DNA from: Escherichia phage vB_EcoM_3A1_SA_NWU | DNA: 64,000 nucleotides | Sequence record: OR062524 | Strand: one strand, 5' to 3' | Part shown: in pieces, positions 43,856 to 54,289 of the stretch | Layout: every line of letters begins with the position of its first letter | Position numbering within the stretch: the first letter of the stretch is position 1 | Made by a program: the position numbers and the translations under genes | The notes under the pieces: generated by a model | Databases searched by the model: none | Seen by the model: only the letters and a program-made list of their open reading frames with translations | Told to the model about the DNA's origin: nothing

Positions 43856-44482
43856 ATGGGAATCCCTTTTGACTTAAAACTTGGACCAAACAACGACCTC
43901 ATCATGGATGATGGGGATTTGGTCCTCACTACAACCAGAACAGAAATTGCAGCACAAACTCTTGGGATAACTCTGAACACGTATCGTGGGGAGTGGTTTT
44001 TAAATACTAACTTCGGTGTTCCTTACTTACAAGAGATTATTGGTGTTGCTAGAAAGAAAGATATTGTAGACAGAATATTTTTAGCAGAGATTGCCAAAAA
44101 CGTTTACATAGATACAATAAACAGTTATAAATCTGCTTATGACATGGATCAACGTTATTACTCAATGACAGTTATGGTCACAGTTGGAGCAGATACAGTA
44201 ACATCTATATTCAATACTCAACCTTCTGAAGAGTTTATTTACCCTGAAGCTGGTGAAGACAATGCAGCGATCATTTGTGAAGCTTACAGTATTGTTGAGA
44301 ATTCGAATAGACTTTATCGCTTTATCAACTTTGTTGGTTTGCCACGTGATACCTACTCTACTTGGTGGAATGAATGGTCTACAGAGTCAGCAGTGGAAAG
44401 AATCATGGTTAACGAAAAAGGTGATGCATTAGCTACAAACAATAATTTCGGTATAACAGCTATGACAGGAGTAGAAGAGTAA
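43856..44482 (+). CDS. baseplate protein (putative)
   Basis: 208 aa; position. Confidence 0.4.
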   Translation: MGIPFDLKLGPNNDLIMDDGDLVLTTTRTEIAAQTLGITLNTYRGEWFLNTNFGVPYLQEIIGVARKKDIVDRIFLAEIAKNVYIDTINSYKSAYDMDQRYYSMTVMVTVGADTVTSIFNTQPSEEFIYPEAGEDNAAIICEAYSIVENSNRLYRFINFVGLPRDTYSTWWNEWSTESAVERIMVNEKGDALATNNNFGITAMTGVEE

Positions 44483-44955
44483 TGGCAGATTTAACTACGA
44501 TCAAAATTTCTGATCTTACACAAACAACCTCTGTGTCTGATACAGATTTCTTTGTAACAGATCAGGCTGGAATAACAAAGAAAACTTCTTTGAAAGTGCT
44601 GTTGAGTGGTGCAGGGGTAACTAGAAACCGTCTGAATGCACGGGGAACAGTAACTAGCACCTTGGCATTAGATATTAGTTCGGCAGAATATTTTTCAGCA
44701 ACTTTATCTTCTGCAACGTGCACAATTAGTTTTACTAATATTCCAGTAGCAACAAATGCAGTTTTAAACTTTACTTTAGCTTTGCGTCAAGGAAGTGGTG
44801 CAAATAAAGTCGTATGGCCTTCTTCTGTAAAATGGAGTTTTGGTCGTTCCCCAGTTTTGAGTTATCGTCAAGGTGCAACAGACACTTTTGAGTTTATCAG
44901 TTATGATAATGGAGCAACTTGGACAGGTAGCTTAGTTTTAGCAGGAGTTATTTAA
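44482..44955 (+). CDS. small tail-fibre-like protein with conserved N-terminal anchor motif
   Basis: 157 aa; N-terminus ISDLTQTTSVSDTDFFVTDQ resembles that of the 50002 gene. Confidence 0.4.
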   Translation: MADLTTIKISDLTQTTSVSDTDFFVTDQAGITKKTSLKVLLSGAGVTRNRLNARGTVTSTLALDISSAEYFSATLSSATCTISFTNIPVATNAVLNFTLALRQGSGANKVVWPSSVKWSFGRSPVLSYRQGATDTFEFISYDNGATWTGSLVLAGVI

Positions 44956-47831
44956 TGTCAAGAGTTAAGCACAATATTGACAACACGTTTCAGTTGATTG
45001 AAGGGTTGGTTCAGTTTTTGGAAAGAAATACTGGGCTTACCATAGATCCTACGGTTCAGCATTACATTATCAACCCACAAAACGTATTGGCGAACAACAG
45101 ACACTTTATTAACTGGACAGCGCAGGAAGGGCAACCAAACGGTGACGCTACTACCGAAGGTCAATCTGTGCTTATCACTGGTTTTGCTTATGCATATTTG
45201 GCTACAGGGGATAAAAAATATCTTGAATCTGCCGAGAAGTATTGGCAAGCCTATATAGATCACTTCTTCGGGGGCCAACCTATTCCTGATCCTCCGGCTA
45301 AATATCGTCCCAACTGGATCATCAATGGTAAAGAACCACGTTTAGCACATTACCCTCTCACAGATGATGGGTATCCTACGCACGGTGGGTTCAAAGGTAG
45401 CATGATGACTTGGATTAACGGAAGGACTGTTATTCCTAAAGGTGCGCCACACTGGGGAGAATACTTAGATAAAGCTTGGTTTGCTTTCAATGGTAATCTT
45501 GGTTGGAACTCTGTTAACGCAACAGTGTATGCAACTAACCCAGATGGTTCAACCAACTGGAAAGAATATGGAGATCAGTGGGACGTTGAATGGATTATAG
45601 ACCGTCTAGGACGTAAAGTTGATTGGGATGGTAACATTTTATCTACTGGTCATAGCTTTGCAGAATATGGAACAGTGCAACTTAAAAACGCTTCTGTGAA
45701 CGGTGACTATAAATTCAACTACGCTACATGCAACCCTGTAGAACACGGTGGGTATCTACTTAAACGTAATGAGATGTGGCATAACCGTCCTGTAAACGTT
45801 CCGGTAGAGTTAGGTTATCAAGATAATGCTTCCGATGCTGAAACGTGGTGGTGTGATGCAAACTACTTGATGTATCAGATCACAGGAGAGAGAAAATACT
45901 GGCTTTGCTGGCAATCTTCTTTATTGTTGTGTCAAGACTACTCAAACATCGATATGTTTGATAAATTCTTCCGTAGATCTACGACAGCAATAATTCCTTT
46001 TACAGATGGTATCTCGTATGATTACTCATACCCATCTACAGCAATACCTAAATATTCTCGTGACGAATTAGGATACACAGTAATTCGCCAAGATGTTTCA
46101 GCACAAACAACTCTAGAACAACAGGCAGTTTGGTTCAGAGTAGATCAGAATTCAAAACTGTGTATTGAGTTTCAAGGTGTAGATGATGCAGGGGAAGGTG
46201 TTCTTTTCCGTCCAGAGCTAGAATTAAGCAAAACTAAGAGTGAAACAGACACAGTGACATATCGTTGTGGCTTACCTCTTGGTGCAGCTAATATGACTAA
46301 GATGGATATACCTTTATCTAGTTTTATGCGCACCGAACCTCCTGGAGGTGGTGTATATATTATTGCTGAACCCAGAATTATTGTTGACTGGGGAAGCAAT
46401 ACTGTGATACAATATAAATATGCAACTGGTATTGCTGGGACAAATAGTGATCAGATAGTTTCTGCTAATATGGATTCAGATGGTGGTTTTACTGTTGGGT
46501 TTTGGTTAACACCAACTAAAACAGCCAATTTAAAATCTATTACGTATCGTTCATACACAGATGATTTTAACATCACTATTACGGATTCCGCAGGTTGGAG
46601 ATGGTGGGCCATGTTAGAAAAAACAAATTCTGCATGGGTTACTAAAGCTTTAAGTCCTGCCGATTTCAAATTAAGTACTTGGCAACCTAATCACGAAGAC
46701 ACAGAGGCAAAACCTTCGTCAATAAACCTGACTGCTGTTGATCAGATCAATATTGCATTGGATTCTGAACCTGCAAATGGCTTAACAGGGGCAATCGATT
46801 TTTATTGCGTTAACGATATCCCATCTTTGTATTCTTCAGCCACTGGTGATGATTACACAATGTATTTCAGGGTTACAGTTTCATCTGAAAATCCTTATAC
46901 AGCAAAACTTGGAGATTGTACAATACTGGACTACAAACTTAACAGTTTGAATTATACTCCAGGAATCATTCCATTTTCCAATATCAGTGATCCTAACACA
47001 GCCTTATATGACGGTTGGCGTGGTATTCCTTACCCAGGTTATCAATACCCATCCTTATATTGTTTTAAAGGGAGAGATATTGATTGGGTTCGTATGAACA
47101 ACAGTATAGACTTTTTATATGATTCACAAATGTGGTTTTATAATAAGTTTGCTCCTGTGATGCCTGGACCAATGGCACAAGCTTATGTTTGGGATCGTTG
47201 GGATGCTCATAAATATGGAAACAAAAATGAGTTCACAATGTATCATTGGAACGATAAAGCTTGGGATGGTTATGAAGCACGAGCATTCTTCTGTGCGTGT
47301 CATACGGTATACGAACTAAAGCGACGAGGAGCCGAAGTTCCTGAAAAACTTTTAACAGTTTGTAAAAACTGGATCAACTACCTGAAGTGGTTCCAAGATA
47401 ACAACGAAGGAAGAACACCAACAATATTTTATCCCAACGGAGAAGTGGCTGCGCCTGTAGATGACTTTACAAGTCACATGTCTGCGCTCTTTATGGCGGG
47501 ATGTGCTATAATGGGGATGGCTGGATATGATTCAGAAATCCCTAACATTAAAATAGTAGCAGACCGCTGTTTTGAACTTATTCAGGAAAACTATATTGTT
47601 CTTGGTCCTAATCACGTTATGAATGGTTGTTGGAGTGCTGCTCCTAGACCAGACAGTGATAACGGAGTCTTCTTTGGCTTCCACGCTGGAGAGTTGTTAC
47701 GTGGTTTTGGGTTGTATGCTTTATACAAAAAACTTAATCCCCAAAATGCATTACCTGTTTTGGATTCGAGCAATATTCCTGCACTTACTGTTTTGACAAT
47801 GGCAAACATTAGTGTGGACGTTACCGAGTAA
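44955..47831 (+). CDS. large tail-associated protein with glycosidase-like region
   Basis: 958 aa; segment GFAYAYLATGDKKYLESAEKYWQAY has the flavour of alpha/alpha-toroid glycosidases or epimerases. Confidence 0.35.
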   Translation: MSRVKHNIDNTFQLIEGLVQFLERNTGLTIDPTVQHYIINPQNVLANNRHFINWTAQEGQPNGDATTEGQSVLITGFAYAYLATGDKKYLESAEKYWQAYIDHFFGGQPIPDPPAKYRPNWIINGKEPRLAHYPLTDDGYPTHGGFKGSMMTWINGRTVIPKGAPHWGEYLDKAWFAFNGNLGWNSVNATVYATNPDGSTNWKEYGDQWDVEWIIDRLGRKVDWDGNILSTGHSFAEYGTVQLKNASVNGDYKFNYATCNPVEHGGYLLKRNEMWHNRPVNVPVELGYQDNASDAETWWCDANYLMYQITGERKYWLCWQSSLLLCQDYSNIDMFDKFFRRSTTAIIPFTDGISYDYSYPSTAIPKYSRDELGYTVIRQDVSAQTTLEQQAVWFRVDQNSKLCIEFQGVDDAGEGVLFRPELELSKTKSETDTVTYRCGLPLGAANMTKMDIPLSSFMRTEPPGGGVYIIAEPRIIVDWGSNTVIQYKYATGIAGTNSDQIVSANMDSDGGFTVGFWLTPTKTANLKSITYRSYTDDFNITITDSAGWRWWAMLEKTNSAWVTKALSPADFKLSTWQPNHEDTEAKPSSINLTAVDQINIALDSEPANGLTGAIDFYCVNDIPSLYSSATGDDYTMYFRVTVSSENPYTAKLGDCTILDYKLNSLNYTPGIIPFSNISDPNTALYDGWRGIPYPGYQYPSLYCFKGRDIDWVRMNNSIDFLYDSQMWFYNKFAPVMPGPMAQAYVWDRWDAHKYGNKNEFTMYHWNDKAWDGYEARAFFCACHTVYELKRRGAEVPEKLLTVCKNWINYLKWFQDNNEGRTPTIFYPNGEVAAPVDDFTSHMSALFMAGCAIMGMAGYDSEIPNIKIVADRCFELIQENYIVLGPNHVMNGCWSAAPRPDSDNGVFFGFHAGELLRGFGLYALYKKLNPQNALPVLDSSNIPALTVLTMANISVDVTE

Positions 47832-47839
47832 GGGGTAAA

Positions 47840-49993
47840 ATGAAACAAGCTATATTTACTGTCACGCGAGACAAGAGAGTAAATGCGAGTTCATTTAACT
47901 ACACGACTGTTGACGGAACAGCAGTCGCTGGTAGAGATTATATTGCAAAATCGGGAACACTTGTGTTCCCTGATGATGCTGATTCTGCTACTATTGTGGT
48001 TGAAGTATTTGAACGACCAAAGAACTCAATAGATCTTAACTTCTCCCTCCAAGTTTCAGGGATTAGTCAAAATAACATGATGGTTGAAACAACCATCAAT
48101 TGTATTATAACTACTATCCAAGAAAATACTACTCCAATAACTTGGACTACAAAAGACGTTAAAATGTTCTCTCCTATGTATTGGACAATAGATTCTCAAG
48201 CAACGGAAAGTTGTTCTATTGTATCTCATGGAGACTCTTTTACTGCAAGATTTGTAAACAGAACAACAGCAGGTTTGGCAGGGGTTATCTGGAGTACAGT
48301 TGACAAATATGACCATAAAGGTGTTGGGTATTTGCCTCACACAGATTTAAGTTCAGAGAAACTTTGGTTTAAAATGGAAATTAGTCAAAACATGCCAGGT
48401 TTTAAAGAAGAACCTTTGGTGCCGACTTTGACTGTAACTCTCCTGGATAAAAGTGTTCATTATGTCAGTTTAGGATTCTACGCTTCAGATATTTCAGAAG
48501 ATGGTAAAACAGCCACAATAAAGTTAGATTTTGGTAATATCTTTTCTGGCCCTAATAATGATATTCCTTTGGATATGAGTGCTGTAGATAATATTTTCTT
48601 CTCTTTGATTACAGCAAGGTATGAAGAAATAGAAGAGGTTGTACCTATTGGCAGTCAAGAGGCTTGGTTTACTTTCACTCTTCTTGAACCTACCTCTGGT
48701 TATAGTATGATGAAAGTCAGCAACCTTGTCCAGCCTGAACATGATATTCGCATGTGCACATCTTATGATGATATGTATAACCTGACTCCAGAGAGAGTTA
48801 TTTATAATACATATGCACTAGGTTATCGTGGAATGATTAACCATTACAACGGAATGTCTCACTATTATGAGTTCTCATGGAACGGAACATCTTGGGCTTT
48901 AAATAGATCTGTCTTCCTGAATCCAGCTACAGAAGCTTGGCTAAATAGTTTCCATTCTATAGCGAACGAGAAGGGTTACACAATAATGAACTCTTTAAGT
49001 TTTGAGTTGATGAGCACAGTTTGTCCTGTTGAATGGGTCCAGCATGATTGGAACGATGCTCTTGCAGCAACAGGGTATAAGCCTCCTAGTTACGTGTTGT
49101 CTCCAACTATTGACGAAGGCATGGAATATTTGCAAAATGTTATTAACAAAATAGCATCTATTTCTCAAGCTAACAATATTCCAGTCGTCATTCAAATTGG
49201 TGAACCTTGGTGGTGGTATAATACAGCAAGTAAAATGCCTTGTATATATGATTACACTACCAAACTAGCATTCAATACAGAAACAGGCTTATTTGCACAA
49301 GATGCAGGAACAATAGATAATTATAAAACAGGAACACCGTTTGACGAATACTATGCATTTTTGTCTCGTAAACTAGGATTAAGAGTTACAAAGTTTGCAA
49401 TAGACACTAGAGCAACTTATCCAGGAGCTAAAGTAACATTGCTTCCGTTCTTACCGTCAATTATTGGCAACGGTTTGATGGAGAAAGTTAACTTTCCGTC
49501 TGATTACTACATTCCTGAAACTTTTGATTTTTACTGTTCAGAGTGTTACGACTGGCTTCTGGAAGGTAAAATGATGAAAGCATTCGATGCAATTACCATA
49601 CCACATGAAAAATTAGGTTTTGAGTATTCTGATATTCACTATCTTTCGGGTTTTGTTCCAGATGCTACTCTTGCACCTTTGTATGGCTTCGATCCTGAAT
49701 CAAACTACCGTACGTATCTTTGGAAAATGATTATAGGTAATATAGTGTTGAACGCCAATAAGTTCAATGGGCTTACACAATATATATGGGCCTATCCTCA
49801 AATAATGCATGATTCCATCACGGTAGTTAATTCTCAATCCCAAGTTTTCTATATGGGTAATGTGCCTTTGAATTGTTATTTGCAAGATATCACTCTTAAA
49901 CAAGCAAATGTTGAGATTGCTACCATAAGTGGAATTACATTAGCTACTAAATCTGGAGAAGATTTAGTAACAACACAAAAATTTTATATATAG
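47840..49993 (+). CDS. tail-associated protein with N-terminal Calx-beta-like domain
   Basis: 717 aa; N-terminal FTVTRDKRVNASSFNYTTVDGTAVAGRDYIAKSGTLVFPDDADSATIVVEVFE fits the Calx-beta pattern. Confidence 0.4.
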   Translation: MKQAIFTVTRDKRVNASSFNYTTVDGTAVAGRDYIAKSGTLVFPDDADSATIVVEVFERPKNSIDLNFSLQVSGISQNNMMVETTINCIITTIQENTTPITWTTKDVKMFSPMYWTIDSQATESCSIVSHGDSFTARFVNRTTAGLAGVIWSTVDKYDHKGVGYLPHTDLSSEKLWFKMEISQNMPGFKEEPLVPTLTVTLLDKSVHYVSLGFYASDISEDGKTATIKLDFGNIFSGPNNDIPLDMSAVDNIFFSLITARYEEIEEVVPIGSQEAWFTFTLLEPTSGYSMMKVSNLVQPEHDIRMCTSYDDMYNLTPERVIYNTYALGYRGMINHYNGMSHYYEFSWNGTSWALNRSVFLNPATEAWLNSFHSIANEKGYTIMNSLSFELMSTVCPVEWVQHDWNDALAATGYKPPSYVLSPTIDEGMEYLQNVINKIASISQANNIPVVIQIGEPWWWYNTASKMPCIYDYTTKLAFNTETGLFAQDAGTIDNYKTGTPFDEYYAFLSRKLGLRVTKFAIDTRATYPGAKVTLLPFLPSIIGNGLMEKVNFPSDYYIPETFDFYCSECYDWLLEGKMMKAFDAITIPHEKLGFEYSDIHYLSGFVPDATLAPLYGFDPESNYRTYLWKMIIGNIVLNANKFNGLTQYIWAYPQIMHDSITVVNSQSQVFYMGNVPLNCYLQDITLKQANVEIATISGITLATKSGEDLVTTQKFYI

Positions 49994-50001
49994 GAGTAAA
50001 A

Positions 50002-51858
50002 ATGTCAACTACAATTACTAATTTACCCGAAACATCAAAAGTTAATGATTCTGATTACCTGGTTTTAGACCAACCTGATAAGACTGTTAAAAGCACAGTT
50101 TCCAACTTTCTTACTGACACTGGGGTGGTTTTAGCCACCCAGTTGAAAGATACAGATGGAGCAGATTTAATAGGACATAGAAACGCTACGGTTGGCACTA
50201 CTCTGGATTCAATTGCAGTCCACTCAGATCAATTTTCTACTATTCAGGAATGGGCATCATACCCAGCAAAGCACAAAACTTTAGCAGGCGGAACATATAC
50301 TCTGGACTCTACTCTTAGTGTGGAATGTGAATCACTGACCACTGAGGGTGTAGTCACTATAAATGCTTCTGGTTCATTCATCGCTATGTACTTTGGTACA
50401 AATCAGCGAGATTTACTAACCACTATTAGCTCTAATATTTCAAAAGGAATAACCAGTCTCTCTGTTGATGGTGTTCAGGAAGGAGATACTCTATGCTTTT
50501 ATAATCCTTCGGATTTTTCATGGTCTGGATACCGTAATTATTATCGTAGTGGAGAGTTTGTTAAGGTTGTTAGGTATTCGAATGGGATTGCATACTTCAA
50601 TGGGGGAACTAAAGCCGAATACCCATCAGGAACTCAAGTTTATAAACTAAAAACAAAAAAAGTTTCTGTCAGTGGGACTTTTATATTTAATTTTCCTTCA
50701 TATGATAAAACCGCCATGGGCATGCAATTCGAGCAGATAGCTGATAGTAACTTTGACAATCTCGTTGTCACATCTCACACTGCACCTTATGCTGCTCAGT
50801 TTAAACGTTGTTTCAATCTTACTGGCAAGGGAATGCGTCTTACACAGGAGTCTCCTTCTGTAAGTTTTGGCTTAGAATATGGCTGCTATATCTGCAATAG
50901 CCAGAATATTGATTTTGAAGGTATATTCTGTGCGGAGCGACACGCAGTAACTGTGACTGGTAATAATGAAATTTGCGGTATTGTTAACCGATCTATTAGT
51001 GTTAACGCCAGTGGTGGAGGTGCAATCATGACTACTGGACAGGGTGGGGTAGCGGCAGCAGACTGGCACGGAAACACCGAGAAGTGTAGGTATGGTGGAT
51101 ATATTCAGGGTCTTGCTTGTGGGGGTTCTAAAAACAGTGCATCTGGTGCCCATATTGACCACATACCTAATACTCCGGCATGGCCTAACATACTTGCTAC
51201 GGAACTGAAATCAATAGAGTTTGATTTAAGTGATATCCATGTTACCGGGGTGGGTGATCCATCTTCAGTGAACAGAGGTTGTATTGACTTTGGTGGTAAC
51301 TCTACCGCATTCGGAACTAATACCGTAGATCCTGGAACGCTGAACCTTTCGGGGGCCGTTATTGATTCTCCTGCAAGCGTATTGATTGAGATAAGAAACA
51401 GGGGTTCAGTAGCTGCTCACACCATAAATCTTAATGGAGTTACCGCCAATGCAGAGAGCGGTAAGCACACAGTCAGGATTGCGCCGGTTGGGGATGGTAT
51501 TTCTCCTTCAGATGTTTACATGGCAGGGTTTAAGATGCCTGCTGGTAGTATCTCACAGATAAACAATTTAGCATCAGTAAACGTACATGGGGTGTCCAAA
51601 AAAGGTAGATCTTCTATAACCATACCAAGTGGGTCCAGTTCTGCGGAGTTAACTATTCCTCTCGATTCTACTGTACTTGGTGCACCGAAATCGGTTCAAT
51701 TCAACCAGTCTGGTCTTGTTCCAGCATCGCAAGCAAGGGTTGTATTCTCTGAACGGACTTCGTCATCAACCGAGTTACGGGTTATCGTGGCGACAGCTAA
51801 CGGCAATACACTCTCAGCGGACCTTACTATACCGTTCTCATGGCGTGCAGATTGGTAA
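50002..51858 (+). CDS. tailspike-like protein (beta-helix) with fibre anchor N-terminus
   Basis: 618 aa; N-terminal anchor motif, Gly/Asn-rich repetitive beta-strand segments. Confidence 0.45.
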   Translation: MSTTITNLPETSKVNDSDYLVLDQPDKTVKSTVSNFLTDTGVVLATQLKDTDGADLIGHRNATVGTTLDSIAVHSDQFSTIQEWASYPAKHKTLAGGTYTLDSTLSVECESLTTEGVVTINASGSFIAMYFGTNQRDLLTTISSNISKGITSLSVDGVQEGDTLCFYNPSDFSWSGYRNYYRSGEFVKVVRYSNGIAYFNGGTKAEYPSGTQVYKLKTKKVSVSGTFIFNFPSYDKTAMGMQFEQIADSNFDNLVVTSHTAPYAAQFKRCFNLTGKGMRLTQESPSVSFGLEYGCYICNSQNIDFEGIFCAERHAVTVTGNNEICGIVNRSISVNASGGGAIMTTGQGGVAAADWHGNTEKCRYGGYIQGLACGGSKNSASGAHIDHIPNTPAWPNILATELKSIEFDLSDIHVTGVGDPSSVNRGCIDFGGNSTAFGTNTVDPGTLNLSGAVIDSPASVLIEIRNRGSVAAHTINLNGVTANAESGKHTVRIAPVGDGISPSDVYMAGFKMPAGSISQINNLASVNVHGVSKKGRSSITIPSGSSSAELTIPLDSTVLGAPKSVQFNQSGLVPASQARVVFSERTSSSTELRVIVATANGNTLSADLTIPFSWRADW

Positions 51859-51877
51859 ATATTTATACTAAAAACTA

Positions 51878-51900
51878 AGGCCTCAAACTGGGCCTTTATT
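51878..51900 (+). terminator. terminator-like hairpin (AGGCC-loop-GGCCT) plus T-rich tract
   Basis: aggcctcaaactgggcctttatt. Confidence 0.4.
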
Positions 51901-51927: not shown

Positions 51928-52170
51928 ATGAGAAAGTTTTTAATCGGAATGTTTTGTACTTATCCAAACAACAAAATCAGTTCTACTAAAGTGTGGAACG
52001 CACTGGGAATGCTAACCATGACAGGCATGTTTATCTTTTTAGGAATAGAAAAAGAAATTCCTGAATGGATGGGTTGGGCTTTTGTTTTCATGATAACCCC
52101 TTCTCGCCTCATGAAAAATCTTATTGATTTACGTTGGGGCAGATCACAATCTACCAAAGAGGATGACTAA
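51928..52170 (+). CDS. small two-TM membrane protein (holin-like topology)
   Basis: 80 aa; two hydrophobic helices, charged C-terminus RSQSTKEDD; AAGGAG RBS. Confidence 0.45.
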   Translation: MRKFLIGMFCTYPNNKISSTKVWNALGMLTMTGMFIFLGIEKEIPEWMGWAFVFMITPSRLMKNLIDLRWGRSQSTKEDD

Positions 52171-53657
52171 TGGACGAATATGGTTTGACAGATGCGGGAT
52201 TTGTAATCCCGACTTTTGACGATGTTCTAAACAATTATATGACAGCAGTAAAAAACACATTTGGTGCAGATGCAGCCACTTCGGAAGATACTGTGATCGG
52301 ACAACTGTTTAGAATAATTGCATACACAGATTATACATTGTGGGAAGGTATGCAAGGTGTTTATAATACTCAAACACTGGATGGTGCAGAAGGTATTTAT
52401 CTTGACGAAATCTTTTCTAAACGCGGTTTCTATCGAGCAGGGGCAGCAGCAAGTACAGGTTATGCCTATGTTAAGAGTAATAACAAAGCAGCTTGGACTT
52501 ATGAGTTAGGCACGGATATTTACTTCAACTCTGATAGTGATATGAACTACTATGTTAGCACACCAACTATGTTGAATGCTAAGATTGCAGCTTATCAAAT
52601 CTCTCGTGCTAATGCAACTGCTACAGGTGTTCCAAATATTACTTTTTATGCACAAAGTGCGGTAGACGGAGGACTAAACAGTAAAACACTTGCACCTGGT
52701 TCTTCTACATTTATAACAGATCTTGAAACTTTTATCAAGGCGAATTTAACAGAAGCTGATCGTAGTCTTGTATTTTCTGATTCGGGTAACTTATCAGTTG
52801 GTTTTACTTCTTTAACCAGTGATACGCCAGTGGGACTGGTAACTCCCATTAAATTTTATGCTAGTGTTCCGGTTGGAACCAAGTGGAGTGAGATTCCGGT
52901 AGTTGCAGCAGAGAAAGGATACAATCCTGTTGGTGTGGAGTCTATTACAGGGATATCTTCTACCTTTACAGGTTATCTTGACAGTGGTAACTTCTATTCA
53001 TTTTCTCCTGGTCGAGATGTTGAGACAGACGCAGAATTCCGCTCTCGTTTCAATGACAACGTTGATGAAGCTAACGCAGGGACACGAGCAGCTATTGTGA
53101 AAGCTCTGCTACTTACAGATGGTGTTACTAAGGTGAAGATTTATGATAACCCTACGTTACATGATCAAGAACATGCTCCAGCTATGACTTTCCAGACTAT
53201 AGTTTATGGAGGGAGTGCTGAAGAAGTTGCTGAAGTTATTTACAAAACTAAACCAATCAACAGTTTGACACATGGAACAACCAACATAACTGTTACAACA
53301 GAAGACGGAGGACAAGAAATTATTCGTTTTTCTCCTGGTGCTTCTGCTACGTATTCCGTAAAACTTGTTTATCAAACTGTCAACGGAACAACTTTAAGTG
53401 GAACAGAAAAACAAAACATCGTAGAAGCTTTACAAAACCTGCAAGCTTACTTTGAGTTAGGTTCTTCAGTAACGAACGATCAAATCAAAGGTGTTATTTA
53501 TGCAGCACTTGCTTTTGGACGCTTGACTTCTCTTCGTGTTTATGTTAAACTTAATACTGAGGATGACAGTAAATATACAGAGAATAATATAGTTCCTGCT
53601 TATAATGTTGTCCCTTCTTTTGACCTTGATAACATTTCTTACGAGTATGGAGTGTAA
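52170..53657 (+). CDS. baseplate J-like protein
   Basis: 495 aa; N-terminal DEYGLTDAGFVIPTFDDVL pattern typical of baseplate J family. Confidence 0.5.
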   Translation: MDEYGLTDAGFVIPTFDDVLNNYMTAVKNTFGADAATSEDTVIGQLFRIIAYTDYTLWEGMQGVYNTQTLDGAEGIYLDEIFSKRGFYRAGAAASTGYAYVKSNNKAAWTYELGTDIYFNSDSDMNYYVSTPTMLNAKIAAYQISRANATATGVPNITFYAQSAVDGGLNSKTLAPGSSTFITDLETFIKANLTEADRSLVFSDSGNLSVGFTSLTSDTPVGLVTPIKFYASVPVGTKWSEIPVVAAEKGYNPVGVESITGISSTFTGYLDSGNFYSFSPGRDVETDAEFRSRFNDNVDEANAGTRAAIVKALLLTDGVTKVKIYDNPTLHDQEHAPAMTFQTIVYGGSAEEVAEVIYKTKPINSLTHGTTNITVTTEDGGQEIIRFSPGASATYSVKLVYQTVNGTTLSGTEKQNIVEALQNLQAYFELGSSVTNDQIKGVIYAALAFGRLTSLRVYVKLNTEDDSKYTENNIVPAYNVVPSFDLDNISYEYGV

Positions 53658-53659
53658 AA

Positions 53660-54289
53660 ATGGCAGTGAGTGTTGACCATGTAACAACTTGGGCCAGTAT
53701 CAATGAAGATGTTAAAAACCTTCTGATTGAAGATTTTAAATCTTCTCCTAACATTGTCAAGCTCCTCTACATCGTATCCAGTGAAAAGCAAAAGATAGAT
53801 CAGGCAATGATCTATCTTGCTAAACACCGCTTGATCTCTACAGCCACAGGCAAATACTTAGATATTCTAGGGGAAGAAATGGGGATCGAACGTAATGGCT
53901 CTGATGATGAAGAGTATAGAACAATATTAAAAATCAGGGCTTACCGCGTAGCCTCATCGGGGACTCGTGGTGACATAATTGATATCTTCGCCCGTTTCAC
54001 AGGAACAGAACGTGAAACGCTTAATACTTACGTAGGTTTGAATAAAACCTTCGATGTGTTTTTCTACAACCTGTGTCTTCAATCTGATCAAGCTTTAGAG
54101 CAGTTGCTAAGTGTTTTCCCTATTATTAGTAGCTACCGTCTTGGAGCAAAAGCAGGATCAGCTTTTGGTTTTAGTTCTTATTATGCTACCAAACCGCCTC
54201 ATGGTATTGGTGGTTTAGGTTCCCTGTACATGGAATCTACTGGGGATGAAACAGGACGCATGTGTACGCTTCTCAAGCAAATAGATTAA
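53660..54289 (+). CDS. baseplate/tail protein (putative)
   Basis: 209 aa. Confidence 0.4.
   Translation: MAVSVDHVTTWASINEDVKNLLIEDFKSSPNIVKLLYIVSSEKQKIDQAMIYLAKHRLISTATGKYLDILGEEMGIERNGSDDEEYRTILKIRAYRVASSGTRGDIIDIFARFTGTERETLNTYVGLNKTFDVFFYNLCLQSDQALEQLLSVFPIISSYRLGAKAGSAFGFSSYYATKPPHGIGGLGSLYMESTGDETGRMCTLLKQID

What the first reader, a model, noticed from the sequence alone, without database searches (positions are those of the whole stretch)
47840..49993. Calx-beta-like domain at the N-terminus of a phage tail protein
Calx-beta domains are calcium-binding modules mostly known from cell-surface proteins and are uncommon in phage structural proteins. Here one appears to replace the usual fibre anchor domain.
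Basis: partly seen in the sequence, partly recalled or inferred. Interest (0 to 1): 0.45.

Follow-up and report, generated by a model that had tools for sequence, protein, structure and literature searches.

The report
Split Calx-beta anchor on phage fibre
The Calx-beta domain at the start of this phage tail-fibre protein is real but lacks its first strands, which are found at the very end of the protein encoded just upstream, so the two pieces probably click together to anchor a known sugar-recognising fibre rather than to bind calcium.

Summary
ORF 47840-49993 (717 aa) begins with a Calx-beta domain (Pfam PF03160, 42 bits, cut-off 27), followed by the NCTSP_N and TIM-barrel domains of the phage N4 gp64/gp65 receptor-binding sheath. 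The window is a Phapecoctavirus. The protein is the orthologue of phi92 gp142, already proposed as the binder of the NGR surface glycan, and one GenBank record already calls it "Calx-beta domain protein".

Calcium binding is not supported, because the acidic ligands are replaced.

The new point is that the domain lacks strands A/A' in all ten lineages examined. In each, the protein encoded immediately upstream ends in a tail (...LTVLTMANISVDVTE) that aligns without gaps to exactly those strands. This tail:
- sits on two unrelated upstream proteins, a 958-aa fibre protein and a ~225-aa baseplate wedge protein;
- is absent from their homologues that are not followed by the Calx gene;
- is conserved as peptide, not as DNA;
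- is disordered in an AlphaFold model.

A natural fusion protein (P0231) joins the same two protein types covalently.

Best reading: a split Calx-beta "plug and socket" anchors the fibre. This is inferred, not structurally verified.

The parts
47840..49993 (+). ORF of 717 aa: orthologue of phi92 gp142, the conserved 'lateral tail fibre with glycosidase and deacetylase domains'. It is the proposed receptor-binding protein for the NGR glycan.
   Evidence: literature PMC8594841, PMC8669472, bioRxiv 10.64898/2026.04.02.716166
47840..48115 (+). Calx-beta domain, aa 1-92, containing strands B to G only. Strands A/A' (profile columns 1-23) and the acidic Ca2+ ligands are absent.
   Evidence: Pfam 42.2 bits; own Calx profile aligns from column 24-26; AF2 strands at 3-9, 17-25, 38-43, 49-56, 66-73 and 85-90; Ca-site comparison
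48158..48715 (+). NCTSP_N domain (PF23844), aa 107-292. This beta-sandwich is shared with the N-terminus of N4 gp65.
   Evidence: 59 bits; N4 gp65 match at aa 101-164
48734..49813 (+). TIM barrel (PF23845), aa 299-658, homologous to N4 gp64. It contains the GMSHY motif (aa 338-342) and the invariant residues E455 (QIGEPWWW) and E568 (SECYDW), which are candidate catalytic residues.
   Evidence: 264.6 bits; N4 gp64 E 4e-30; Foldseek 9lc0_M E 1e-20, rmsd 2.6 over 312 columns, plus GH31 and PgaB hits; invariant columns
49922..49990 (+). C-terminal 23 aa (ATISGITLATKSGEDLVTTQKFYI), pLDDT below 50. The segment is present only in the window protein and the phi92-like homologue. Role unknown.
44955..47831 (+). 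Upstream ORF of 958 aa (phi92 gp141 position). It is a fibre protein with a split alpha/alpha barrel and CBM-like beta-sandwich inserts, and is the proposed docking partner.
   Evidence: (phrog_2871 tail protein)
47739..47828 (+). C-terminal 30-aa extension of the 958-aa protein (PQNALPVLDSSNIPALTVLTMANISVDVTE). The last 12 residues (LTMANISVDVTE, nt 47793-47828) align without gaps to Calx strands A/A', with the preceding LTV continuing the strand pattern. This is the proposed 'plug'.
   Evidence: absent from 116 of 120 family homologues; pLDDT about 29 with no secondary structure; profile alignment runs across the junction without a gap; score gain 6.3 bits, reached by 0 of 60 control tails and 0 of 300 shuffles
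47830..47835 (+). Shine-Dalgarno AAGGGG, overlapping the TAA stop of the upstream ORF and lying 4 nt before the ATG. The two ORFs are in different frames (offset 2).
53660..54289 (+). Comparator, not part of the module: a 209-aa baseplate wedge protein (phi92 gp146 position). In Vequintavirinae its homologue carries the plug tail; here it does not.

Best explanation
The gene encodes the conserved NGR-glycan receptor-binding protein of rV5/phi92/phAPEC8-type myoviruses. Its working part (aa ~100-660) is the NCTSP_N beta-sandwich plus TIM barrel shared with the N4 gp64/gp65 receptor-binding sheath. Its N-terminal Calx-beta domain is not a calcium sensor. It is the attachment module, an incomplete beta-sandwich ('socket') that lacks strands A/A'. 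Those strands are encoded at the very end of the preceding gene, as a disordered 15-30-residue C-terminal tail ('plug'). In this window the preceding gene is the 958-aa fibre protein. In Vequintavirinae it is the ~225-aa baseplate wedge protein. After separate translation, the tail is proposed to insert into the Calx domain (donor-strand complementation), tying the receptor-binding protein to whichever structural protein carries the tail.

Shown: domain identities, the truncation, the loss of Ca ligands, the co-occurrence and peptide-level conservation of the tail, its disorder in isolation, and a natural covalent fusion of the two protein types.

Inferred: that tail and Calx domain physically bind, and that they do so by strand complementation.
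For: 1. Identity. Pfam finds Calx-beta, NCTSP_N and TIM-barrel_NCTSP. N4 gp64 and gp65 match by sequence and by fold. The gene is 100% identical to a Phapecoctavirus gene. The literature assigns the phi92 gp142 family to NGR recognition through the GMSHY motif, which is present here.
2. Truncation. All nine Calx-bearing homologues, the rV5-like homologue and the Av-05 homologue start at strand B. The AF2 model has six strands.
3. Tail. In 10 of 10 lineages the ORF ending 0-12 nt upstream finishes with h-x-h-x...[IVT][STV][VI][DN][VAF][TS].
4. Two unrelated carriers. The 958-aa and ~225-aa proteins share nothing except this tail.
5. Specificity of the tail. Homologues not followed by the Calx gene lack it: 4MG gp048, DrSchubert bas50_0026, 116 of 120 database homologues, and the window's own 209-aa wedge protein.
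6. Peptide-level selection. Between the window and Av-05, the last 8 codons are 2 identical, 5 synonymous (including AGT/TCT) and 1 non-synonymous.
7. Register. Tail plus N-terminus aligns without gaps to a full Calx profile, and the chain break falls exactly in the A'-B loop. The score gain is 1.6-6.3 bits. For the window, 0 of 60 control tails and 0 of 300 shuffles reach it.
8. Disorder. AF2 of the 958-aa protein gives pLDDT about 29 with no secondary structure for exactly the 30-aa extension.
9. Natural fusion. P0231 (1557 aa, SU10-like podophage) fuses a 958-like core through a 25-aa linker directly to NCTSP_N plus TIM, with no Calx domain. The split Calx domain therefore occupies the position of a covalent linker.
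10. Modularity. Calx-beta alternates with classical N-terminal anchor domains in Erwinia-phage depolymerases.
Against: - There is no structure or complex prediction.
- The profile score gains are modest, and weak for PaulScherrer, L010 and MaxBurger (shuffle p about 0.03-0.05).
- The tail regular expression was derived after seeing the data.
- AF2 folds the six-strand domain confidently without a partner, so it may be stable alone.
- In a second lineage (Erwinia phages pEp_SNUABM_01 gp075/gp074 and phiEaP8 gp06/gp07) an A-less Calx domain again follows a conserved upstream tail (QTVKLNLLAPALA). That tail does not score as strand A/A' in phiEaP8 (0.5 bits); in pEp_SNUABM_01 the gain is 4.0 bits but is within the control range.
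- No natural protein with tail and Calx joined in one chain was found.
- The 2026 phi92 cryo-EM study did not resolve or mention gp141/gp142.
Confidence: 0.55

Rival explanations
1. The Calx-beta domain is an accessory adhesion or carbohydrate-binding Ig-like module that helps the fibre hold on to surface glycans or mucus. Anchoring is done by another part of the protein. The upstream tail then has some unrelated role.
For: Ig-like and Calx-beta modules on cell-surface and phage proteins often act as weak adhesins (general knowledge). AF2 folds the domain on its own with pLDDT 80-91. In alphaproteobacterial homologues a DUF2460 domain, which I recall as tail-tip (Dit-like), sits at the C-terminus, not the N-terminus. 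So the attachment point in this family is not always N-terminal.
Against: This reading does not explain why two unrelated upstream proteins carry the same tail only when the Calx gene follows. It does not explain why that tail aligns in register with the missing strands. It does not explain why a natural fusion joins the 958-like C-terminus to the NCTSP N-terminus.
Confidence: 0.2
2. The arrangement is a relic. An ancestral single gene (X-Calx-NCTSP) was split by a stop codon and a new ribosome-binding site. The tail is a decaying remnant with no present interaction, and the two proteins assemble by other contacts.
For: The break lies exactly in a loop, as expected for a tolerated fission. A fused relative exists.
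Against: The tail is kept in ten lineages whose Calx-bearing proteins are down to about 43% identical overall (about 36% within the Calx domain). Synonymous sites are saturated but the peptide is conserved. The tail was transferred onto a second, unrelated carrier protein. A remnant would be lost, as in 116 of 120 family members.
Confidence: 0.12
3. One reading: a calcium-binding Calx-beta module makes adsorption calcium-dependent.
For: Family name and fold only.
Against: The acidic cluster that binds Ca2+ in NCX1/CALX CBD1 is replaced (DDD..E..E becomes ERP..S..L) and is not conserved among homologues. Strand A, which as I recall contributes one Ca ligand in CBD1, is missing.
Confidence: 0.05
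4. The two ORFs are joined by programmed frameshifting or stop-codon read-through into one polypeptide with a complete Calx-beta domain.
For: In 4 of 10 lineages the ORFs are in the same frame, separated by one stop and 1-4 codons.
Against: Frame offsets are 0, 1 and 2 in different lineages. No slippery heptamer lies between the downstream-frame stop (47810-47812) and the TAA at 47829-47831. Every downstream ORF has its own ATG, and those junctions I inspected show a Shine-Dalgarno.
Confidence: 0.03

Closest known systems
Phage N4 gp64/gp65 non-contractile tail sheath, the receptor-binding protein for NfrA/NGR (PDB 9lc0, 9yf4)
   Same: It shares the NCTSP_N domain, the TIM barrel, the GMSHY motif and the QIGEPWWW / ExYDW residues. 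Dependence on the NGR glycan has been shown for relatives.
   Different: N4 splits these parts over a 1382-aa ten-domain gp65 and a 417-aa gp64 wrapped round a podovirus tail. Here a single 717-aa protein sits on a myovirus baseplate and has an extra N-terminal Calx-beta domain that N4 lacks.
phi92 gp142, rV5-group and BASEL 'lateral tail fibre with glycosidase and deacetylase domains'
   Same: It is the orthologue: 76% identity to the Justusliebigvirus protein, the same synteny, and the same three Pfam domains.
   Different: Nothing functional differs. The published descriptions do not mention the Calx-beta domain, its truncation or the upstream tail.
Calx-beta domains of Na/Ca exchangers (NCX1 and CALX CBD1/CBD2) and integrin beta4
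   Same: The sequence family and beta-sandwich fold are the same.
   Different: The phage domain lacks strands A/A' and the Ca2+-coordinating acidic residues. It is N-terminal and solitary rather than tandem.
Donor-strand complementation in chaperone-usher pili
   Same: The proposed principle is the same: an Ig-like fold missing an edge strand is completed by a short extension from the neighbouring subunit, giving a very stable non-covalent joint.
   Different: As I recall, pilins lack the last (G) strand and receive an N-terminal extension. Here the first strands (A/A') are missing and the donor is a C-terminal tail. No chaperone is known, and the interaction is inferred, not demonstrated.
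Branched receptor-binding complexes of Ackermannviridae (CBA120 TSP1-4) and G7C gp63.1/gp66
   Same: One fibre or spike protein docks on another through dedicated N-terminal adaptor modules, allowing several receptor-binding proteins per baseplate (PMC11414711 abstract).
   Different: Those use XD/T4gp10-like or T7 gp17-like adaptor domains between trimers. Here the adaptor would be a two-piece Calx-beta domain.

Membership tests
Calx-beta (Pfam PF03160) | Significant match to the family profile above the curated threshold | tested here: met
   42.2 bits against a gathering score of 27; 47.4 bits for the isolated domain; 70 bits to my own profile
Calx-beta (Pfam PF03160) | Complete beta-sandwich including strands A/A' within one polypeptide | tested here: not met
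   Profile columns 1-23 are unmatched, the protein starts at strand B, and the AF2 model has six strands. The missing strands are found at the end of the upstream ORF.
Calx-beta (Ca2+-binding subtype, as in NCX CBD1) | Acidic Ca2+-coordinating cluster (DDD..E..E) at the distal loops | tested here: not met
   The aligned residues are E58 R59 P60 .. S63 .. L66, and they are not conserved in homologues.
NCTSP (N4 gp64/gp65-type receptor-binding module; PF23844 + PF23845) | Both family profiles matched above threshold | tested here: met
   59 and 264.6 bits against cut-offs of 27
NCTSP (N4 gp64/gp65-type receptor-binding module; PF23844 + PF23845) | Fold superposes on the solved N4 gp64 TIM barrel | tested here: met
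   Foldseek 9lc0_M / 9yf5_SA, E about 1e-20, rmsd 2.5-2.6 A over 312 columns
NCTSP (N4 gp64/gp65-type receptor-binding module; PF23844 + PF23845) | Forms a six-fold sheath round a non-contractile podovirus tail | tested here: not met
   The genome is a myovirus (Phapecoctavirus) and the gene lies in the baseplate/fibre block. The family name does not describe the role here.
NGR-glycan-targeting receptor-binding proteins (phi92 gp142 / N4 gp65 group) | Conserved GMSHY motif in the shared domain | tested here: met
   G338-M-S-H-Y342 is invariant in homologues. The motif is defined in bioRxiv 10.64898/2026.04.02.716166.
NGR-glycan-targeting receptor-binding proteins (phi92 gp142 / N4 gp65 group) | Infection depends on wecB/nfrA/nfrB (NGR synthesis) | not testable with these tools
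   This has been shown for Vequintavirinae and phi92-like relatives, but not for this phage.
Donor-strand-complemented Ig-like assemblies | Acceptor domain lacks an edge strand | tested here: met
Donor-strand-complemented Ig-like assemblies | Partner carries an extension that matches the missing strand in sequence and register | tested here: inconclusive
   The alignment across the junction has no gap and gains 1.6-6.3 bits. The gain is significant for the window (0 of 360 controls reach it) and marginal for three lineages.
Donor-strand-complemented Ig-like assemblies | Strand seen inserted in a structure of the complex | not testable with these tools
No solved structure contains these proteins.

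The most novel reading that the evidence does not exclude
A portable two-piece docking device. An N-terminal Calx-beta 'socket' without strands A/A' sits on the receptor-binding protein. A 15-residue C-terminal 'plug' peptide is encoded at the 3' end of whatever gene lies upstream. The two move together as one recombination cassette, so the same fibre can be grafted onto unrelated structural proteins: a fibre protein in Stephanstirmvirinae and a baseplate wedge protein in Vequintavirinae. Variants in Erwinia phages include a 117-aa stand-alone adaptor. This would be the first split Ig-like domain used to assemble a phage adsorption apparatus.
Probability: 0.45. Interest if true: 0.65.

Novelty: new variant of a known kind. 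Interest (0 to 1): 0.5.

Why it matters
- Unresolved structure. How the many fibres of rV5/phi92-type 'Swiss-army-knife' phages are wired to the baseplate is still open. The 2026 phi92 cryo-EM study could not assign fibre II and did not place gp141/gp142. A plug-and-socket link predicts that gp142 hangs on the C-terminus of gp141 in phi92 and phAPEC8-type phages. It predicts that gp142 hangs directly on the wedge protein in rV5-type phages. Both predictions are directly testable.
- Engineering. A 15-residue tag that recruits a receptor-binding protein would be a convenient handle for host-range engineering.
- Annotation. The labels 'non-contractile tail sheath', 'capsid protein' and 'deacetylase' attached to this gene in databases are misleading. 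The calcium-binding implication of the Calx-beta name should not be carried over.

Tried and rejected
No complex model exists.
- Scoring the chimera with the Pfam Calx-beta profile raised the score by only 1.1 bits. I therefore built a profile from 90 contiguous repeats, which gave clearer but still modest gains.
- A search for a natural protein with tail and Calx in one chain found none.
- A scan of 1.84 billion representatives with aa 1-102 returned only giant multi-repeat Calx proteins. It gave no information on other N-terminal truncated domains.
- Programmed frameshift or read-through is rejected, because the frame offset differs between lineages and no slippery site exists.
- DNA-level conservation (regulatory element) as the explanation for the tail is rejected, because synonymous sites differ.
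- Calcium binding is rejected from the ligand positions.
- Extending the strand-A/A' reading to the Erwinia-phage tails (QTVKLNLLAPALA) is not supported by the profile.
- Promoter and terminator scans were at background level, apart from a hairpin after the tailspike gene.
- Foldseek of the 958-aa model gave only weak CBM11/CBM22 and alpha/alpha-barrel hits, so its activity stays unknown.
Full report
**What is there**

The ORF 47840..49993 (+) is real. It is 717 aa and begins at the first ATG after an in-frame stop. An AAGGGG Shine-Dalgarno overlaps the TAA stop of the preceding ORF, which lies in another frame. Pfam finds three domains, all above the curated cut-offs:
- Calx-beta, aa 4-82, 42.2 bits, cut-off 27
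- NCTSP_N, aa 107-292, 59 bits
- TIM-barrel_NCTSP, aa 299-658, 264.6 bits

The Calx-beta assignment has independent support:
- PDB sequence hits to Na/Ca-exchanger CBD domains (E 1e-7)
- 70 bits against a profile I built from 90 contiguous Calx repeats
- 13,007 hits in a scan of 1.84 billion representative proteins

An AlphaFold2 model built on a 31-sequence alignment is confident (pLDDT 90.8, pTM 0.88). It shows a six-stranded beta domain at aa 3-90.

**Whose gene it is**

The DNA is 100% identical to Escherichia phage vB_EcoM_10C3_SA_NWU and 97-99% identical to other Phapecoctavirus genomes (Stephanstirmvirinae, ~150 kb myoviruses). In those records the gene is variously annotated as 'hypothetical', 'non-contractile tail sheath', 'putative tail fiber', 'capsid protein' and, once, 'Calx-beta domain protein'.

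It lies in a tightly packed, co-directional baseplate and fibre block:
- gp25-like sheath initiator, 43856-44482
- 157-aa fibre protein
- 958-aa fibre protein, 44955-47831
- this gene
- a 618-aa tailspike
- a Baseplate_J wedge protein, 52170-53657
- a 209-aa wedge protein, 53660-54289

By synteny with the phi92-like phage PaulScherrer and the gene names used in the literature, the 717-aa protein is the orthologue of phi92 gp142. The 958-aa protein corresponds to gp141.

**What the C-terminal two thirds do**

- The TIM barrel matches N4 gp64 by sequence (E 4e-30), and the region round GMSHY matches N4 gp65.
- The fold matches N4 gp64 (Foldseek E 1e-20, rmsd about 2.6 A over 312 columns). GH31 glycosidases and E. 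coli PgaB follow in the hit list.
- In N4, gp64 and gp65 form the receptor-binding sheath (PMC13434306).
- Maffei et al. described the myovirus protein as a 'lateral tail fibre with glycosidase and deacetylase domains' homologous to N4 gp64.
- Sellner et al. showed that Vequintavirinae, phi92-like phages and N4 all depend on the NGR glycan.
- A 2026 preprint names phi92 gp142 as the NGR-binding protein and singles out the motif GMSHY. The motif is present here at aa 338-342 and is invariant in homologues.
- E455 (QIGEPWWW) and E568 (ExYDW) are invariant across 31 diverse homologues and in N4 gp64. In the model they sit at the ends of barrel strands. I take them as candidate catalytic residues; this is inference.

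This part of the protein is a known kind with a published proposed function.

**The calcium idea**

Aligned to NCX1 CBD1 (IIDDDIFEEDENF), the protein reads VFERPKNSIDLNF. Using the NCX1 numbering as I recall it, the ligand positions D446, D447, E451 and E454 become E, R, S and L. These positions vary freely among the nine closest homologues. Calcium binding by this domain is therefore unlikely.

**The domain is incomplete, and the missing piece is next door**

The Pfam alignment starts at profile column 24. My full-repeat profile starts at column 24-26. The missing columns are strands A and A'. No in-frame N-terminal extension is possible. The same truncation occurs in every Calx-bearing homologue examined, down to 43% overall identity.

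The 958-aa protein encoded immediately upstream ends ...IPALTVLTMANISVDVTE. When this tail is concatenated with the 717-aa N-terminus, the pair aligns without gaps to the full Calx profile. LTMANISVDVTE aligns to lslsissasvte, MKQ to the ggs loop, and AIFTVTRD to vtftVtrs. The chain break therefore falls exactly in the A'-B loop. The score rises by 6.3 bits. None of 60 other C-terminal tails from the window and none of 300 shuffles reach that gain.

**Comparative evidence**

I collected ten distinct lineages from the phage, IMG/VR and metagenome collections. In all ten, the ORF that ends 0-12 nt before the Calx gene finishes with a related tail:
- ...LTVLTMANISVDVTE
- ...LTVLTASDVTVDVTKE
- ...ILIYVDNISVDATE
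- ...LIKVSVQDTTVNFS
- ...TIYCDSISIDVTAEG
- ...TIYCESITVNATRQEG

The carrier protein is not always the same. In Stephanstirmvirinae it is the 958-aa fibre protein. In Vequintavirinae (rV5 type, Av-05 type and metagenomic relatives) it is a 225-229-aa baseplate wedge protein. That wedge protein is homologous to the window's 209-aa protein (E 3e-29) but is extended at the C-terminus. The only similarity between the 958-aa and 225-aa proteins is the tail itself.

Homologues that are not followed by the Calx gene lack the tail:
- 4MG gp048 ends ...GLYAMYRNLTR, and DrSchubert bas50_0026 ends ...GLYAQYRGLYL.
- The window's own wedge protein ends ...GRMCTLLKQID.
- Among 120 database homologues of the 958-aa family, only the four Stephanstirmvirinae clusters carry the tail.

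Between the window and Av-05, the last eight tail codons are 2 identical, 5 synonymous (including AGT versus TCT for Ser) and 1 non-synonymous. Selection therefore acts on the peptide, not on a DNA element. The frame offset between the two ORFs is 0, 1 or 2 depending on the lineage, and each downstream ORF has its own ATG, preceded by a Shine-Dalgarno where I inspected the junction. That excludes a conserved recoding event.

**Two further lines of evidence**

An AF2 model of the 958-aa protein (pLDDT 85.5) is well folded up to residue 928. It gives pLDDT about 29 and no secondary structure for residues 929-958. Those residues are exactly the extension that homologues lack.

A natural 'Rosetta-stone' protein also exists. 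P0231 is 1557 aa and comes from an SU10-like podophage contig. It fuses a 958-like core through a 25-residue linker directly to NCTSP_N plus the TIM barrel, without any Calx domain. The two protein types therefore belong together physically, C-terminus to N-terminus. In the window, the split Calx domain occupies the place of that linker.

**Interpretation**

The best-supported reading is that the Calx-beta domain is the anchor of the fibre. The mechanism would be that the upstream protein's C-terminal tail supplies strands A/A' in trans, a plug-and-socket joint analogous to donor-strand complementation in pili.

The tail and the Calx gene appear to travel together as a cassette. That would explain how the same receptor-binding protein came to hang on a fibre protein in one subfamily and on the wedge in another.

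My estimates:
- about 0.55 for a functional tail-Calx docking interaction
- somewhat lower for strict strand complementation

**Weaknesses**

- Profile gains are marginal for three lineages.
- The motif was defined after seeing the data.
- AF2 folds the six-strand domain alone.
- In the Erwinia-phage lineage, conserved upstream tails (QTVKLNLLAPALA) precede A-less Calx domains but do not score convincingly as strands A/A' (0.5 bits in phiEaP8; 4.0 bits, within the control range, in pEp_SNUABM_01).
- The recent phi92 cryo-EM paper neither resolves nor mentions gp141/gp142. It gives no support and no contradiction.

**Novelty and verdict**

The following are already known or already annotated:
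- the Calx-beta hit, which is precomputed in Pfam tables and used as a product name in one GenBank record
- the gene's role as the NGR receptor-binding protein

None of the papers I searched or read describes the following:
- the truncation of the domain
- the matching tail on the upstream protein
- the occurrence of that tail on unrelated carrier proteins

I rate the finding as a new variant of a known kind, an adaptor or docking module for phage receptor-binding proteins. Interest is moderate (0.5): ordinary as first stated, more interesting if the split-domain joint is confirmed.

Noticed in passing
L089 6691-11364 (Logan SRR10874396 contig, SU10-like podophage), protein P0231: A 1557-aa natural fusion of a 958-like fibre-protein core with NCTSP_N and the TIM barrel, with no Calx domain. 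Other members of the 958-aa family carry different C-terminal additions: Gly_rich_2 domains in ~1600-aa proteins, and uncharacterised C-terminal additions in P0208, P0221 and P0242. The C-terminus of this family looks like a general attachment point.
   Followed up: partly
L005 4986-5339 (Erwinia phage pEp_SNUABM_01 gp073): A stand-alone 117-aa protein consisting of an A-less Calx-beta domain followed by a C-terminal tail (...IPVISISDAVLTTV) that resembles the strand A/A' consensus. The profile gain is 3.0 bits; 1 of 60 control tails and 3 of 300 shuffles reach it. It could be a circularly permuted domain or a chain-forming adaptor.
   Followed up: partly
L005 323-4944 and L006 2804-7409 (Erwinia phages pEp_SNUABM_01 and phiEaP8): A myovirus and an N4-like podovirus share a gene pair in which the upstream protein ends ...QTVKLNLLAPAL(A/SD). 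The downstream ~800-aa depolymerase-like protein starts with an A-less Calx-beta domain. The arrangement is the same but the tail sequence differs, and the tail is not recognised convincingly as strand A/A' by the profile.
   Followed up: partly
proteins P0137-P0139 and P0141 (homologues of window 44955-47831): A second conserved C-terminal tail type, ...LNPQSxLPxIGIDLR..., shares the LNPQxALP linker with the window protein but ends differently. It may be a plug for a different partner. The downstream genes were not examined.
   Followed up: no
window 49922-49990: The last 23 residues of the 717-aa protein (ATISGITLATKSGEDLVTTQKFYI) have pLDDT below 50. They exist only in the Phapecoctavirus and phi92-like versions. 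They might be another docking tail, for the tailspike encoded next.
   Followed up: no
window 50002-51858 versus L001 14163-16451: The tailspike gene directly downstream is 618 aa here but 762 aa in the 99%-related phage Ro121c4YLVW. A receptor-binding cassette has been exchanged at this position while the Calx gene is kept.
   Followed up: no
window 48734-49813: The 'deacetylase' label used in the literature probably stems from similarity to PgaB. Foldseek hits PgaB (4f9j, E 2e-7), but GH31 glycosidases rank higher, and Glu455 and Glu568 are invariant. Whether the barrel hydrolyses, deacetylates or only binds NGR is open.
   Followed up: partly
window 51877-51896: A terminator-like hairpin (AAGGCCTCAAACTGGGCCTT followed by a T-rich run) lies 19 nt after the tailspike stop. 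It is the only plausible transcription stop in the 43.8-54.3 kb fibre block.
   Followed up: no
window ~22000: GC skew flips from negative (1-22 kb) to positive (22-64 kb). This is consistent with a switch of coding strand between two divergently transcribed genome arms.
   Followed up: no
window 44955-47831: The AF2 model of the 958-aa protein shows an alpha/alpha barrel split by large beta-sandwich inserts. Only weak matches were found to CBM11/CBM22 modules and to GH116 and C5-epimerase barrels. There is no Pfam family and no close solved relative, so its activity is unknown.
   Followed up: partly
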